DNA from: Candidatus Helarchaeota archaeon | GTDB taxonomy: Archaea > Asgardarchaeota > Lokiarchaeia > Helarchaeales > RDOG01 | Direction: 5' to 3' | DNA length: 64,000 bases | NCBI GenBank assembly: GCA_019058315.1 | Contig: JAHPZH010000003.1 | Span: 73,669-137,668, forward strand | Shown here: positions 7,328-23,047 of the stretch, piece by piece | How positions within the stretch are numbered: the first letter of the stretch is position 1 | How the letters are laid out: the number at the start of each line of letters is the position of its first letter | Notes under the pieces: model-generated | Database searches by the model: none | What the model was told of the DNA's origin: nothing | What the model saw: the letters and a program-made list of their open reading frames with translations, nothing else | Program-made: the position numbers and the translations under genes

Positions 7328-7340
7328 ATTACACCGTTAT
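7328..7340. promoter_or_regulatory. Weak copy of ATNACANTGTWAT operator (attacaccgttat), overlapping the RBS of 6196..7326
   Basis: One mismatch to the consensus. Could partly reflect the GGTG RBS on the minus strand. Confidence 0.3.
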
Positions 7341-7399
7341 ATTCCTATTTTATCATATCAAATTTTATTTTCAAGATTGTAAATATTAAATAAGTGGGA

Positions 7400-8188
7400 T
7401 TAGCTTTTTTCTAACTTCTCATATGCTATTATTGCAGCCCCTAATGCTCCTGGGATCTGTGGTTCGTCAGGAACTAATACATCCATTTTAAGCTCATCCT
7501 TAATAGCTTTTCTTACACCCACATTTTTCGCAACACCACCACAGAATGCGAGTGTAGGTTGAATTTTAATACGCTTCACCATTCCAACAATTCTTTTGAC
7601 TATAGCCTTATGAATTCCTGAAATGATATCTTCTTTCTGAATCCCACTTGCAAATAAAGAAATAATTTCACTCTCTGCAAAGACTGTACACATTGAACTA
7701 ATGTTTGACGGTTTTTTAGATTTGAGTGATATTGGTCCCATTTCACTAATATGGCCAACTTTAAGAGCATTCGCCATTACTTCAATAAATCTTCCTGTTC
7801 CTGCAGCACATTTGTCATTCATTACAAAGTCTAATACTTTTCCATTTTTTCCTACACTAATACCTTTGGAATCTTGTCCACCAATGTCTATAATAGTCCT
7901 TACGTTGTCACCCAATAAAAAATTAACACCTCGGGCATGGGCACTAATTTCAGTAATGGTCCCATCTGCAAATGGAATTGAATATCGCCCATATCCAGTA
8001 CCCATGATAAAATTGATGTCACCCTTGTTTAAATTACATTGACTCAATGCTTTTTCATAAACTTCTCCCCCAATTCTCTCGAATTCATGACCACTCCGTG
8101 AAATAAAGTACCCAATCATTTTTTCTCCATCATAAAAAGCACATTTAGTTGTTAGACTTCCTATATCTATTCCTGTAGTAATAGGCAA
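7400..8188 (-). CDS. ATP-dependent acyl-CoA dehydratase activase (HgdC/BadF/BcrD ASKHA family)
   Basis: GIDIGSLTTK, TGYGR, IDIGGQDSK, MNDKCAAGTG, CTVFAESE and GGVAKN motifs. Confidence 0.92.
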   Translation of the reverse strand: MPITTGIDIGSLTTKCAFYDGEKMIGYFISRSGHEFERIGGEVYEKALSQCNLNKGDINFIMGTGYGRYSIPFADGTITEISAHARGVNFLLGDNVRTIIDIGGQDSKGISVGKNGKVLDFVMNDKCAAGTGRFIEVMANALKVGHISEMGPISLKSKKPSNISSMCTVFAESEIISLFASGIQKEDIISGIHKAIVKRIVGMVKRIKIQPTLAFCGGVAKNVGVRKAIKDELKMDVLVPDEPQIPGALGAAIIAYEKLEKS

Positions 8189-8393
8189 ATAAATTCACTC
8201 AATTCTGTTTTTTTTCCAAAATAGAAGAATTCTCAATAAATACTTCATGATTTTACTTTCTTAATAATTTATGTTGTTTTTAGACATATTCTGAAAATAG
8301 ATCTTTTTTTTTATAATTCAATTTATGAAAAAAATATTTGCGGAATCCCGCTGAGTAGCATTTAATTATTTCTTTATAACATTTACTATGATT

Positions 8394-8406
8394 ATAACGA
8401 TGTAAT
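8394..8406. promoter_or_regulatory. Weak copy of ATNACANTGTWAT operator (ataacgatgtaat) upstream of the activase operon
   Basis: One mismatch to the consensus, intergenic. Confidence 0.35.
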
Positions 8407-8492
8407 ATAATTAATAAATTTCGTTAATTTACTTAGTTTAGACAGATTTCAAAAAAAAAATTAATTAGTTATAGTTTTCTATATATAAAAAA

Positions 8493-9680
8493 TTAGATTG
8501 TAGGTGGATGCTCTTTTTCTTGTTCATAACGAGATCCAGCGTCTATAATATTAACTTCTGGGATCATATCTCCAACTTTTTCAAGGATGATTGCTTCATG
8601 TGGACAGTTTGTCGCACAAACACCACAACCAATACACTCAGGTTCATTCAAATAGATATAATTATCTAATAAGTCCACCGAATGTGGTTGATGATGATGT
8701 AGAGCATTCATAGGGCATAACTTTACACATTTTAGGCATAATTTGCAATTATCCTGAATAAATTTTGGCCGAAAATTTGATTTTGCTAGGCCCCCTTGGC
8801 CTCTAGTTTTAAGTAAACCTTGTAAAATAAAACAACAGCAAGAGCAACAATTACAAATCATCCCAGCCATATCTTTAGTAAATTCTTGATTATTTGTAGT
8901 ACAGTGGACCAAACCTGATTCTGCTGCTATACGGAGAACTTCCTCTGCTTCTTCATGGCTTATTAGACGTCCGATCCCTTTATCAGCCCAATAACGGGCA
9001 ACACGATCAAAAACTAAGCAAACATTTAAAGGTCTATCACATCTTCGTTCGCCATCTATATGCTCAGCATGCATTCGACAAGCACAGTCCCCTACTGCGA
9101 TATATTCAGCAGATCTAATGTAGGAGTTAGCTACTTCAAATGGTAAAATTTTTGTTTCCGTAGAAACTTTTTGATCAATTTCAATAGTTTTTTCAACTGG
9201 GTCATTATGAGGCAATACTCGAAACATTGGGTAGCCAAAGTGACAAAATACCTCAGGAGCAAATGTTTCAAAGTAATAATCATCAAGTATTTTTAATATT
9301 TCTTTCTTTTTTTCTGGTGGATCATTTTCACTCATTGTATAAAATTCATATATTCCTGGTATAAAAGGGGCTAAAGAATATAATTTTTTACCTTTTTCAT
9401 TTGTTCGAACAAAAAGAGTTCCTTTATCGACCATTGATTTGAACATTTTTTCAATGTCCTCTCGAGATTTTCCAACTTTTTTTGCCACGCGATTAATTTT
9501 TTCTTCGTTAATATATGGAATACCAAAAATTGATAATACTTCAGCTTCATCTTTGGTGTATAAATTTTCTAATAGTTTTTGAAACTTTTTTGATTTAGGT
9601 ACTGGTAAGAAGAAATTATTTAATGCCTTTCTAAGGTTTTCGTATGGATTTTTTTCATTCATTTTTCTAATCCTACTCAT
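8493..9680 (-). CDS. Multi-Fe-S protein with N-terminal winged-helix-like region and C-terminal 2x[4Fe-4S] ferredoxin domain
   Basis: CACR, ICNCCSCCC, CKLCLKCVKLCP and CIGCGVCATNCP motifs. Confidence 0.8.
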   Translation of the reverse strand: MSRIRKMNEKNPYENLRKALNNFFLPVPKSKKFQKLLENLYTKDEAEVLSIFGIPYINEEKINRVAKKVGKSREDIEKMFKSMVDKGTLFVRTNEKGKKLYSLAPFIPGIYEFYTMSENDPPEKKKEILKILDDYYFETFAPEVFCHFGYPMFRVLPHNDPVEKTIEIDQKVSTETKILPFEVANSYIRSAEYIAVGDCACRMHAEHIDGERRCDRPLNVCLVFDRVARYWADKGIGRLISHEEAEEVLRIAAESGLVHCTTNNQEFTKDMAGMICNCCSCCCFILQGLLKTRGQGGLAKSNFRPKFIQDNCKLCLKCVKLCPMNALHHHQPHSVDLLDNYIYLNEPECIGCGVCATNCPHEAIILEKVGDMIPEVNIIDAGSRYEQEKEHPPTI

Positions 9681-21464: not shown

Positions 21465-21540
21465 TTTAGTTTCTTTTCCCCAAATATCAGGGTCTTATGT
21501 ATTATCTTTAGGATTTAATAGAAAAAAAAATTTAAAAACT

Positions 21541-22827
21541 TTATTTGATAAAATATGCATATTCGATTAATCTGTTAATTTTTCTAAATGATTTTTTATC
21601 TAATTTATTTTTTAGAGACTCCAATAATCTACGTCGAAATTCTATGCCTAAATGTGCAATTTCATCTCCAGGTTCTAAAAGACCTTCCAGGAGGGGCTGA
21701 ATATTTTTAGTATATTCTTCACTAAGTTCTTTATCTTGAAGAATAAGAGCCATTGTATCAATTAACAAATCCATAAATCCACTATGATATACCAGATGAT
21801 GCATTTTTTGGGAATTTTGGATTATTTCAAAGATTCTACTACATTTTCTTTGGTATTTTAATAAAAATGAAGCTGTATAATCAGATTTCTTCTTTGCTTT
21901 AATTAATGTTTCCGCAGCAAGTCTACCACTCATACGTGCATGCCAAATACCTTCATATGTAAAACGGTCAATAAATCCAGCCGCATCTCCAACTAGAATT
22001 ACTTTATTCCCGTATATATGTTCAAGAATACGATCAGGAATTGGTGCAGCCCATATATGCTTTCCTTCGAACTCAATCGGTTTAGCGCCTTCAAGTTTGG
22101 GACGAATGATTGGATGGTGCTTTAAAACTTCTTGAAAGTGTTTGATATCAACATTTTTATTGCACATTCCTACAGATACACCCTCTTTTTTAGTAAAAAT
22201 CCAAGTATATCCATGAGAAGCAATTTGTGAATTAAAGAATAATTCATATACTCCACCACCAAATCTTTCTTCTACTACATGACTGGGTAAATAATATTCA
22301 GCCTGAATCGCTTGTTCAATTTCTAATGGTCGATCAATTTTTAATTTTCGATGTAATTTATTACCATGGACTCCTGTTGCAATAACAATTGCGTCCCCCT
22401 TTATCCGCTTTATATGTGAATTTGATTTTACTTCAACCTCAACGAAATCCTTGTGACATGAAATATTAAATACCTCAGAATTAGTTTCAATTATCGCTCC
22501 ACTTCTTATCGCTTTTTCTCTCAAATAACAATCTAATCGATTTCGGTATGTAAGTTGCCCAATTTTTGTTGAATTATTATCACTTTTTAAATCTACAAAT
22601 TCAGTAGGACCATGTAATATTAAATGATCAACGTCCCTTTCAATAATTTCCGGAGGTAACGAGCCGAAATCTAATTCGTTATGCCACATTAAACCCCCAG
22701 CACATGCTTTATATCGATTATTATCACCTTTTTCAAATAAAATGACATCCACACCATTTTTAGCTAAAAATTCTGCACAAGTTGCTCCTCCAGGTCCCCC
22801 ACCAGCTATAATTACATCATATTTCAT
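21541..22827 (-). CDS. Geranylgeranyl reductase family FAD-dependent oxidoreductase
   Basis: YDVIIAGGGPGG, KACAGG, GYTWIF and LVGDAAG...FTYEGI motifs. Confidence 0.88.
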   Translation of the reverse strand: MKYDVIIAGGGPGGATCAEFLAKNGVDVILFEKGDNNRYKACAGGLMWHNELDFGSLPPEIIERDVDHLILHGPTEFVDLKSDNNSTKIGQLTYRNRLDCYLREKAIRSGAIIETNSEVFNISCHKDFVEVEVKSNSHIKRIKGDAIVIATGVHGNKLHRKLKIDRPLEIEQAIQAEYYLPSHVVEERFGGGVYELFFNSQIASHGYTWIFTKKEGVSVGMCNKNVDIKHFQEVLKHHPIIRPKLEGAKPIEFEGKHIWAAPIPDRILEHIYGNKVILVGDAAGFIDRFTYEGIWHARMSGRLAAETLIKAKKKSDYTASFLLKYQRKCSRIFEIIQNSQKMHHLVYHSGFMDLLIDTMALILQDKELSEEYTKNIQPLLEGLLEPGDEIAHLGIEFRRRLLESLKNKLDKKSFRKINRLIEYAYFIK

Positions 22828-22840
22828 AAATAAACCTCAT

Positions 22841-22880
22841 ATTACATTGTTATATTTACATTGTTATATGACAATGTTAT
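22841..22880. promoter_or_regulatory. Three tandem operators (attacattgttat, tttacattgttat, atgacaatgttat) between the TATA-like box and start of the GGR gene
   Basis: Copies begin at 22841, 22855 and 22868. A minus-strand cttatata box lies at 22881..22888. Confidence 0.8.
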
Positions 22881-23024
22881 TATATAAGTATTTTCTTTAT
22901 TGTAACAAATCAGAAAATTAGGGAAAAGTTGCTCTTTGCTTTTTATTGTTAATTATTTGAATTATTGATAGATACTGAAATCTCATTAATATGATGCAAT
23001 ATTTTATATATGATAAAGTATTAT

Positions 23025-23047
23025 ATATTATAACACTGTTATAATAT
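23025..23047. promoter_or_regulatory. Perfect 23-bp palindrome atattataaca-c-tgttataatat (same operator core)
   Basis: 11-1-11 inverted repeat read directly from the sequence. Confidence 0.7.

What the first reader, a model, noticed from the sequence alone, without database searches (positions are those of the whole stretch)
7328..23047. A 13-bp palindromic operator (ATNACANTGTWAT) defines an undescribed regulon across about 16 kb
Seen: good copies start at 9768, 11531, 11544, 13645, 13770, 19755, 22841, 22855 (one mismatch), 22868 and 23030, with weaker ones at 7328 and 8394. All are intergenic and mostly within about 70 bp of start codons. At three promoters (13818, 19781, 22827) they lie just downstream of a TATA-like box, which is repressor geometry. 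I saw no good copy in intergenic DNA beyond 23.1 kb. Inference: one dimeric repressor co-controls larE, the Fe-S gene, DUF2099, the PP-loop thiolase, the binding protein, the sulfur-relay operon, the Cys-longin and the GGR gene. That links genes on both strands into one sulfur- or redox-responsive system. No obvious regulator gene lies in the island.
Basis: seen in the sequence. Interest (0 to 1): 0.82.

Follow-up and report, generated by a model that had tools for sequence, protein, structure and literature searches.

The report
Sulfur-gene operator with its likely repressor
A 13-base palindrome repeated in front of sulfur, cysteine and iron-sulfur genes of an Asgard (Helarchaeota-like) archaeon is a real, conserved operator. 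Its probable regulator is a small, uncharacterised cysteine-rich DNA-binding protein encoded just outside the window.

Summary
All 12 reported copies exist. Nine are exact, against 0.21 expected by chance. Of 21 exact copies in the 5.8-Mb genome, 12 lie in non-coding DNA of one 60-kb stretch (Poisson p about 1e-25). Composition-matched control palindromes give 0-1 copies there.

The regulon is larger than the 16 kb reported. Outside the window it includes tusA-dsrE-iscS-iscU, DUF166 and a Fer4-AIRS-ThiN-cysE-cysK operon. In this genome it also includes one of eight TFB paralogs.

A candidate regulator was found about 7 kb before the window start. It is a 139-aa protein (P0001) with an XRE-type HTH and a Cys/His-rich tail.
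- In about 14 other loci (Helarchaeota, Lokiarchaeota-labelled, Theionarchaea), the same motif sits 20-115 bp upstream of members of this protein family.
- The tusA-iscSU operon carries the site in seven genomes or contigs that hold the family. It lacks the site in five near-complete relatives in which the family was not found.
- The NMT1/ThrC-like divergent promoter of the window keeps its sites in two other Helarchaeota assemblies.

The protein is a stand-alone homolog of the N-terminal domain of HTH+ThiN (ThiR-type) fusions, and a homodimer model is supported. Repression and the signal sensed (Fe-S or thiol status) are inferred.

The parts
7328..7340 (.). Weak operator copy (ATTACACCGTTAT), 1 bp from the start codon of the HGD-D gene 6196-7326(-).
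   Evidence: It fits the relaxed consensus ATNACRNYGTNAT, which recurs at orthologous promoters.
8394..8406 (.). Weak operator copy (ATAACGATGTAAT), 205 bp upstream of the BcrAD-type activase gene 7400-8188(-).
   Evidence: This is the least certain site because of its distance from the gene.
9768..9780 (.). Exact palindromic operator between the Fer4 gene (8493-9680, -) and the LarE-like PP-loop gene (9804-10610, +).
   Evidence: It lies 23 bp before the LarE-like ATG.
11531..11556 (.). Two abutting operators (11531-11543 and 11544-11556), centred in the divergent DUF2099 / ThiI-like intergenic region.
   Evidence: They are 45 bp and 44 bp from the two start codons.
13645..13657 (.). Exact operator overlapping the start codon of the NMT1-like binding-protein gene (12647-13651, -).
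   Evidence: The orthologous NMT1/ThrC intergenic regions in L125 and L126 also carry sites. A population variant, 13647 G>A, falls on the degenerate position.
13770..13782 (.). Exact palindromic operator 35 bp upstream of the ThrC-like operon. A TATA-like word starts 34 nt upstream of the site.
19755..19767 (.). Exact palindromic operator 13 bp upstream of the 179-aa ORF (19781-20320, +).
22841..22880 (.). Array of three operators (22841, 22855 with one mismatch, 22868) between a TATA-like word and the GGR-family gene start at 22827(-).
23030..23042 (.). Exact operator at the centre of a 23-bp palindrome, 36 bp upstream of a small ORF (ATG at 23079).
2239..8188 (-). Putative target operon: BcrAD-type activase, three HGD-D paralogs, a Fer4 (hdrC-like) gene and a CCG (hdrB-like) gene.
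   Evidence: Pfam. Membership rests only on the two weak sites.
8493..13651 (.). Target genes: Fer4 protein (395 aa), LarE-like PP-loop, DUF2099, ThiI-like with NFACT-R_2, and an NMT1-like binding protein.
   Evidence: Pfam, sites. An unregulated paralog pair (larE-like/DUF2099) on C3 has no site.
13818..19677 (+). Target operon: ThrC-like PLP enzyme, ThiS, DUF169, ThiF, TusA, DsrH, DsrE, DsrE, TusA and a radical SAM enzyme of the MSMEG_0568 family.
   Evidence: In two other Helarchaeota assemblies the same operon continues into cysE-cysK and is followed by P0001-family genes.
19781..20320 (+). Target gene: 179-aa protein with no family match.
20328..22827 (-). Target operon: GGR-family flavoprotein (21541-22827) and a 378-aa protein of unknown family (20328-21464).
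   Evidence: In G003 the ortholog of the 378-aa gene faces cysE-cysK across an exact site.
23070..23198 (+). Small ORF (42 aa from a TTG start, 39 aa from the ATG) or small RNA downstream of the 23030 operator.
   Evidence: Whether it is coding was not tested.

Best explanation
The palindrome, consensus T-ATWAC(A/g)-N-(T/c)GTWAT-A, is most likely the operator of one homodimeric transcription factor. That factor is the 139-aa protein P0001, encoded at G000:C11:66281-66700, 7 kb before the window start.

P0001 has an XRE-type helix-turn-helix followed by a helical Cys/His-rich region. The conserved residues are C9, CxxC at 99/102, CxxH at 112/115 and CxxC at 126/129. It is a stand-alone homolog of the DNA-binding domain of HTH+ThiN (ThiR-type) regulators.

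The conserved core of its regulon has three parts:
- its own gene, often next to nadA;
- tusA-dsrE-iscS-iscU, sometimes with DUF166;
- cysteine synthesis genes (cysE-cysK).

In Helarchaeota the regulon also covers the NMT1-like / ThrC-ThiS-ThiF-TusA thiocarboxylate operon. In this genome it has spread over the whole window island and to one TFB paralog.

The sites lie on or just downstream of the likely transcription start, after TATA-like words or touching start codons of probably leaderless mRNAs. I infer that the bound dimer blocks RNA polymerase recruitment, so the factor acts as a repressor. I also infer that the cysteine cluster at the dimer interface reports Fe-S, sulfide or thiol status, which would give a logic like IscR or SufR.

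Shown: the operator is real, it is conserved, and it co-occurs with the protein family. Inferred: direct binding, the sign of regulation, and the effector.
For: **Clustering.**
- 12 of 21 exact copies genome-wide lie in non-coding DNA of C11:37-97 kb (p about 1e-25). Control palindromes give 0-1 copies there.

**Sites upstream of the family's own genes.** Each sits 20-115 bp from the start.
- G003, G005 (two loci) and G006.
- Contigs L052/L053 (two exact sites), L036, L037, L054/L055 and L038.
- L125 (two paralogs) and L126.
- Theionarchaea L101.
- L050 has the symmetric variant ATAACGCCGTTAT.
- In a first tally that missed the two minus-strand loci of G003 and G005, 7 of 17 loci had a site with at most one mismatch within 200 bp upstream. 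The chance per locus is about 4% (binomial p 2e-6). With the two missed loci the count is 9 of 17.

**Orthologous target promoters.**
- tusA-dsrE-iscS-iscU carries the site in G000, G001, G003, G006, L050 and L052. G005 has a two-mismatch symmetric form.
- cysE-cysK in G003 and the Fer4-AIRS operon in L050 and L052 carry it.
- The NMT1/ThrC-like divergent region carries it in L125 and L126.

**Negative control.**
- Five 99-100% complete relatives of family f4 have the same tusA-iscSU operon (60-82% identity) but no site. No family member was found in them with the protein or the profile, while the positive control G003 scored 3.5e-35.

**Single candidate.**
- P0001 is the only full family member in G000.

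**Genomic context.**
- The family sits next to nadA, iscSU and cysKE in distant archaea.

**Homodimer model.**
- Score 0.63 against a best control of 0.01. That mark was reached by 20 of 30 proteins solved as pairs of one chain and 1 of 23 solved as single chains.
- The runs agree in at least 90% of contacts, and the partner pLDDT is at least 76.
- The interface places C9 of one copy against C99/C102 of the other.
- This supports binding but does not show it.
Against: - No binding, expression or transcription-start data exist, so binding and the sign of regulation are untested.
- G000's own P0001 promoter has only a two-mismatch copy. The two good sites lie after the gene, in front of the next operon.
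- G004 has a family homolog with an internal stop and no nearby site.
- The same Cys/His pattern occurs in HTH+ThiN fusions. It may therefore be a structural metal site rather than the sensor.
- A second regulator type (HTH_3+CBS) neighbours some sites in Lokiarchaeota-like contigs.
- TATA-like words are frequent in AT-rich DNA, so the repressor geometry is only suggestive.
- Orthologs of several island genes in more distant relatives lack sites.
- ORFs were called mechanically. The assembly is a MAG with 6.6% estimated contamination.
Confidence: 0.72

Rival explanations
1. The palindrome is a real operator, but it is bound by a different factor. One candidate is the HTH_3+CBS regulator that neighbours sulfur genes in Lokiarchaeota-like contigs. 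P0001 would then be only one of the regulated genes.
For: In L037 and L055 a site lies in the divergent region between a Cys/Met PLP enzyme gene and an HTH_3+CBS gene. L038 has that gene next to a site. Autoregulation-type evidence cannot by itself separate a regulator from a target.
Against: G000's only HTH_3+CBS homolog is on another contig (C5:499057). Its match has an internal stop and no site is nearby. In L036 the HTH_3+CBS gene is 6 kb from the site, while the P0001-family gene is adjacent. The presence or absence of sites at tusA-iscSU tracks the P0001 family.
Confidence: 0.1
2. P0001 binds the sites but acts as an activator or a dual regulator. Alternatively, it works as a split ThiR: the separately encoded 199-aa ThiN protein of the adjacent operon would sense thiamine phosphate and signal to P0001.
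For: The family is homologous to the N-domain of HTH+ThiN fusions. A stand-alone ThiN gene lies in the operon directly after P0001 and its two sites. Some sites lie 80-200 bp from start codons, where activation is possible.
Against: thiC, a hallmark thiamine gene, has no site upstream in G000. The conserved targets are iscSU, cysEK and nadA, not thiamine genes. In Theionarchaea a fused HTH+ThiN protein and a stand-alone member coexist 2 kb apart, which argues for separate roles. Many sites touch start codons or follow TATA-like words.
Confidence: 0.15
3. The copies are not regulatory. They would be chance AT-rich palindromes, remnants of a repeat or mobile element, or an RNA hairpin.
For: The DNA is about 70% AT overall. 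The genome-wide count of the pattern is no higher than that of a reversed-pattern control. In relative G017 the perfect palindrome is enriched as part of a different, longer repeat that is not near sulfur genes.
Against: The local clustering has p about 1e-25, and same-composition controls give 0-1 copies. Flanks beyond about 15 bp are not conserved. Sites are kept at orthologous promoters across genera while the surrounding DNA differs. A 6-bp stem with a 1-nt loop cannot form a stable RNA hairpin (inference).
Confidence: 0.03

Closest known systems
ThiR, the archaeal thiamine regulator with an HTH N-domain fused to a ThiN-like sensor (Rodionov et al. 2017, J Bacteriol 199:e00743-16; cited from memory and from the reference list of PMC10746257; the paper could not be read here)
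   Same: The whole of P0001 (HTH plus Cys/His-rich helices) is homologous to the N-terminal domain of HTH+ThiN fusions. hhalign gives 99.2% probability against L101:3583-4395. P0042 and P0100 carry PF10120 (ThiN) at the C-terminus. Both act, or are predicted to act, on palindromic sites in archaeal promoters.
   Different: P0001 has no ThiN domain (139 aa). thiC is not preceded by the site. The conserved targets are Fe-S assembly, cysteine synthesis and sulfur relay. The effector must therefore differ. I could not compare the operator sequences.
IscR and CymR (Rrf2 family) and SufR in bacteria
   Same: The predicted logic is the same. A small dimeric HTH protein with a Cys cluster sits on palindromic operators in front of iscSU-type, cysteine-synthesis and sulfur-trafficking genes, and in most relatives in front of its own gene.
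   Different: There is no sequence relationship. No Rrf2 (PF02082) or SufR model matched even at E up to 10 or 0.01. The fold has no solved relative beyond the HTH. Cluster binding is untested.
SurR of Thermococcales (sulfur-response regulator with a CxxC redox switch)
   Same: It is an archaeal regulator that responds to sulfur status through cysteines and acts at promoters relative to the TATA box (from general knowledge).
   Different: The motif differs: GTTn3AAC for SurR, from memory, against ATWACAnTGTWAT here. The fold differs too: SurR has ArsR-type winged helices, while P0001 matches HTH_5 only at E 0.058. The target genes also differ.

Membership tests
ThiR (HTH + ThiN regulators) | N-terminal HTH DNA-binding domain of the ThiR type | tested here: met
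   hhalign of the family profile A2 against an HTH+ThiN fusion gives probability 99.2% and E 2.9e-19 over 117 columns, including the Cys/His positions. The fusions P0042 and P0100 were recovered by the family profile.
ThiR (HTH + ThiN regulators) | C-terminal ThiN-like ligand-binding domain | tested here: not met
   P0001 is 139 aa with no ThiN match. Its close relatives are 126-150 aa.
ThiR (HTH + ThiN regulators) | Regulon of thiamine biosynthesis and transport genes (thiC, thi4) | tested here: not met
   The single thiC gene (C1:138187-139455) has no site with two or fewer mismatches upstream. thi4 was not located in G000. One one-mismatch site precedes Thi4 in L126.
Rrf2 family (IscR, CymR, NsrR) | Rrf2 winged-helix domain (PF02082) | tested here: not met
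   The Pfam scan at E up to 10 lists 16 HTH families but not Rrf2.
SufR | Match to SufR models | tested here: not met
   The NCBIfam scan at E up to 0.01 gave only a stray DeoR hit at 16 bits.
XRE / Cro-C1 HTH (PF01381) | HTH_3 domain above the gathering score | tested here: inconclusive
   P0001 scores 18.9 bits against a cut-off of 23. Several relatives carry precomputed PF01381 hits. Foldseek aligns only about 40 residues to XRE/DeoR/SorC HTH domains.
Operator of a dimeric regulator | Palindromic, located in promoters, over-represented, and conserved at orthologous promoters | tested here: met
Operator of a dimeric regulator | Direct binding by the proposed protein and an effect on transcription | not testable with these tools
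   No RNA run holds the locus. Only a homodimer model is available.

The most novel reading that the evidence does not exclude
The stand-alone 'ThiR-N-domain' proteins would be a widespread archaeal family of Fe-S or sulfur-status sensors. The family has about 700 clusters at 50% identity with E<1e-10 and is seen in Asgard, Theionarchaea, Bathyarchaeia, Thermoplasmata and others. These proteins would be the functional counterpart of bacterial IscR/SufR, with a cluster or metal site built across the dimer interface from C9 of one subunit and CxxC of the other. In this Asgard genome the sensor would also control an alternative TFB, giving a two-tier cascade from sulfur status to a general transcription factor paralog.
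Probability: 0.3. Interest if true: 0.8.

Novelty: new variant of a known kind. Interest (0 to 1): 0.62.

Why it matters
My literature searches found no described transcription-factor regulon for Asgard archaea, and no regulator of Fe-S or cysteine homeostasis for this large archaeal protein family.

This locus supplies three things at once:
- a defined operator;
- a single candidate protein of 139 aa that can be expressed;
- a clear set of targets.

That makes it directly testable how an anaerobic relative of the eukaryotic host lineage senses sulfur or Fe-S status. The work also assigns a probable role to about 700 clusters of uncharacterised small archaeal HTH proteins. It links the ThrC-like/ThiS/ThiF thiocarboxylate operon to cysteine metabolism, because that operon runs into cysE-cysK in sister genomes.

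Tried and rejected
**Orthologs without sites**
- ThrC-like and GGR-like homologs in the GTDB relatives G001-G006 are only 36-47% identical and have no sites. The ThrC-like copies are probably paralogs, so this says little.
- larE-like and DUF2099 homologs in relatives, and the G000 paralog pair on C3, have no sites.
- TFB homologs in relatives have no sites.

**Collection scans**
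- The metagenome-contig scan with DUF2099 found nothing.
- The genome-contig scan with A1 gave six loci with little new information and some odd record titles.

**Structure**
- The PDB sequence search and Foldseek gave no whole-protein relative.

**Sequencing runs**
- No RNA holder is listed.
- Laying contigs of four sediment runs gave fragmentary cover and a truncated variant list. It is unusable for a selection test, apart from one variant at a degenerate position.

**Other genomes and regulators**
- The G017 enrichment of the perfect palindrome is a different repeat (ATTACAnTGTAATnnTTGAA). It is not near sulfur genes, and no family member was found there with the profile.
- The Thermoplasmata locus L100 (62% GC) has the family gene between iscSU and cysKE but not this motif.
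- The ThiR paper could not be read. Whether ThiR operators resemble this one is unknown to me.
- The HTH_3+CBS protein as the regulator was rejected as the main reading.

**Literature**
- Searches gave no description of this motif or regulon.

Full report
**1. The observation**

The pattern ATNACANTGTWAT occurs exactly at nine places in the window: 9768, 11531, 11544, 13645, 13770, 19755, 22841, 22868 and 23030. Dinucleotide-preserving shuffles give a mean of 0.21 and never more than 2.

All copies lie between long ORFs, except that 13645 overlaps the first codons of the NMT1-like gene. The only one-mismatch hits beyond 23.1 kb are two inside ORFs and one between two convergent gene ends.

**2. 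Is it more than chance?**

The window is G000:C11:73669-137668 in a 5.79-Mb, 30% GC assembly of 12 contigs.

- Genome-wide there are 21 exact copies of ATNACANTGTNAT.
- Twelve lie in C11:37-97 kb, and all of those are in non-coding DNA.
- The non-coding rate elsewhere predicts 0.04 copies in that stretch (Poisson p about 1e-25).
- Nineteen palindromes of identical composition have 0-1 copies in the region.

The total genome count is not higher than that of a reversed-pattern control. The evidence is therefore clustering and promoter position, not abundance.

A position matrix and a relaxed consensus (ATNACRNYGTNAT) add weaker copies in the same neighbourhood at C11:52349 and 55270.

**3. The organism and the genes**

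The closest database relatives of two proteins of this locus are labelled Candidatus Helarchaeota archaeon: 92% identity for the regulator candidate and 91% for the ThrC-like enzyme. Only sediment metagenomes hold a large share of the DNA.

The island in the window encodes the following:

- hdrCB-like genes, three HGD-D paralogs and a BcrAD-type activase;
- a 395-aa Fer4 protein;
- a LarE-like PP-loop enzyme;
- DUF2099;
- a ThiI-like enzyme with an NFACT-R_2 domain;
- an NMT1-like binding protein;
- a ten-gene operon: ThrC-like PLP enzyme, ThiS, DUF169, ThiF, TusA, DsrH, DsrE, DsrE, TusA, and a radical SAM enzyme of the MSMEG_0568 family;
- a 179-aa ORF;
- a GGR-family flavoprotein with a 378-aa protein of unknown family;
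- a small ORF.

Upstream of the window, more sites precede two units:

- tusA-dsrE-iscS-iscU, and DUF166 immediately downstream of it, which has a weak site of its own;
- an operon of a Fer4 protein, an AIR-synthase-like protein, ThiN, CysE and CysK.

**4. The candidate regulator**

A 139-aa ORF (P0001) lies immediately before the two sites at C11:66776 and 66795. It has an XRE-type HTH that scores below the Pfam thresholds. It also has a conserved Cys/His pattern: C9, CxxC, CxxH and CxxC. It is the only full member of its family in G000.

The decisive evidence is comparative. The same motif lies 20-115 bp upstream of family members in many other genomes:

- relatives G003, G005 (two loci) and G006;
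- Helarchaeota and Lokiarchaeota-labelled contigs L052/L053, L036, L037, L054/L055 and L038;
- L125 (two paralogs) and L126;
- a Theionarchaea contig with 47% GC.

A Bathyarchaeia member has a perfect palindrome with the same half-sites and a 2-nt spacer about 50 bp upstream. L050 has the symmetric variant ATAACGCCGTTAT.

In a first tally that missed two minus-strand loci, 7 of 17 loci had a site with at most one mismatch within 200 bp upstream. The chance is about 4% per locus (p 2e-6). With the two missed loci the count is 9 of 17, before the later loci are added.

**5. Conservation at target promoters, with a negative control**

The tusA-dsrE-iscS-iscU operon carries the site in G000, G001, G003, G006, L050 and L052. 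G005 has a symmetric two-mismatch form. G001 holds a family member that is truncated by a contig end.

Five 99-100% complete genomes of a sister family have the same operon in the same order at 60-82% identity. They have no site. No family member was found in them by the protein or the profile search, while the positive control G003 scored 3.5e-35.

Other conserved positions:

- cysE-cysK in G003 and the Fer4-AIRS operon in L050 and L052 carry the site.
- The NMT1-like / ThrC-like divergent promoter keeps sites in two other Helarchaeota assemblies. This is the in-window pair 13645 and 13770.
- In those assemblies the ThrC-ThiS-DUF169-ThiF-TusA operon continues into cysE-cysK. In L125 it is followed, after a radical SAM gene, by two family genes. 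In L126 one family gene follows cysK.

This ties the window's thiocarboxylate operon to cysteine metabolism and to the regulator family.

In contrast, larE-like, DUF2099, GGR-like and ThrC-like homologs in more distant relatives lack sites. So does a second larE-like/DUF2099 pair in G000 itself. Part of the island is therefore a lineage-specific recruitment of paralogs into the regulon.

**6. What the protein is**

A profile search finds about 700 clusters (50% identity) at E<1e-10. Most are about 125 aa and cover the full length. Named members come from Theionarchaea, Bathyarchaeia and Thermoplasmata, and Atlas neighbours are all archaeal.

There is no Pfam or NCBIfam family and no solved relative. 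The AlphaFold model is all-helical with pLDDT 83.6, and only the HTH finds structural matches.

Longer members (270-323 aa) carry a C-terminal ThiN domain. The whole of P0001 aligns to their N-terminal domain with 99.2% probability. P0001 is therefore a stand-alone form of the DNA-binding domain of ThiR-type regulators. It lacks the ThiN sensor, and thiC is not among its targets.

A homodimer model is supported:

- The score is 0.63 against a best control of 0.01.
- That mark was reached by 20 of 30 proteins solved as pairs of one chain and by 1 of 23 solved as single chains.
- The runs agree in at least 90% of contacts, and the partner pLDDT is at least 76.
- The interface places the invariant FPCE motif (C9) of one copy against C99/C102 of the other.

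The model supports binding but does not show it.

**7. Mechanism**

Three things are shown:

- a conserved palindromic operator;
- its co-occurrence with one protein family;
- a coherent gene set covering Fe-S assembly, cysteine synthesis, sulfur relay, thiocarboxylate chemistry and nadA.

The rest is inferred. Several sites follow TATA-like words by 7-35 nt or touch start codons (7328, 13645, the TFB site). This would place them over the transcription start of short-leader or leaderless mRNAs. That is the usual position for archaeal repressors that block polymerase recruitment. TATA-like words are common in this DNA and no start site is mapped.

The arrays of abutting sites (two at 11531/11544, three at 22841-22880) suggest cooperative occupancy.

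The effector is unknown. An Fe-S cluster or a thiol or persulfide switch at the inter-subunit cysteines would fit the regulon. However, the same residues occur in the ThiN-fused proteins and may be structural.

**8. An unexpected extension**

Three relaxed-consensus sites lie within 130 bp upstream of one of the eight TFB paralogs of G000, and the last one touches its start codon. This is not conserved in the distant relatives tested. If real, it couples the regulon to an alternative general transcription factor.

**9. Verdict**

The regulon is larger than 16 kb, and a regulator candidate exists just outside the window.
- I found no published description of the motif, the regulon or the stand-alone family.
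The comparative tests here are independent of it.

It is a new variant of a known kind: an HTH repressor with a palindromic operator, related to ThiR but with a different effector module and regulon.

Noticed in passing
G000:C3:488599-488733 (L005:2900-3034); TFB gene at L005:3030-3992: Three relaxed-consensus operator copies lie upstream of one of eight TFB (TFIIB-like) paralogs. The last copy touches the start codon. This is not conserved at TFB homologs of distant relatives.
   Followed up: partly
G000:C3:1429024-1430684 (L090, L097): A second larE-like/DUF2099 convergent pair, 63-69% identical to the window copies, has no operator. The island copies look like paralogs recruited into the regulon.
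   Followed up: partly
G000:C5:999860-1043173: A single open frame of about 14,400 codons (43 kb) suggests a giant protein gene. One exact motif copy inside it is probably chance.
   Followed up: no
G017, at least seven contigs (L076-L079, L081, L083, L084): A relative of the same class has the perfect palindrome enriched (11 against 2-3 for the control). There it is part of a longer repeat, ATTACAnTGTAATnnTTGAA, unrelated to sulfur genes. No P0001-family gene was found in that genome. The nature of the repeat is unknown.
   Followed up: partly
L099:5937-5954 (Bathyarchaeia contig): A perfect 18-bp palindrome, TTATTACAATTGTAATAA, lies about 50 bp upstream of a distant family member. It has the same half-sites with a 2-nt spacer. 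The gene sits next to flavodiiron-like and hemerythrin-PAS genes.
   Followed up: no
window 23025-23198: A 23-bp perfect palindrome centred on the 23030 operator precedes a 39-42-aa ORF that converges on a 62-aa ferredoxin gene (23220-23408, -). Whether it codes for a protein or is a small RNA is unknown.
   Followed up: no
G000:C5:39325-41341 (L058): A Ras-family GTPase fused to an N-terminal glycine-cleavage H-protein domain lies divergent from an AAR2-like gene (a eukaryotic splicing-factor family). A one-mismatch motif copy lies between them and is probably chance.
   Followed up: no
L036, L037, L038, L055: An HTH_3+CBS regulator gene recurs next to homocysteine and methionine genes (HcyBio, Cys_Met_Meta_PP) in Lokiarchaeota-like contigs. 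It may be a second sulfur-amino-acid regulator. G000's copy (C5:499057) has an internal stop in the match.
   Followed up: partly
L038:857-1733; L125:8337-9535: Family paralogs lie in tandem or close together in some genomes, and each of the L125 pair has its own upstream site. This suggests duplication and possible heterodimers or divided regulons.
   Followed up: partly
L126:6200-8017: In another Helarchaeota assembly a one-mismatch site precedes Thi4 followed by DUF2099. This hints that DUF2099 works with sulfide-dependent thiazole synthesis.
   Followed up: no
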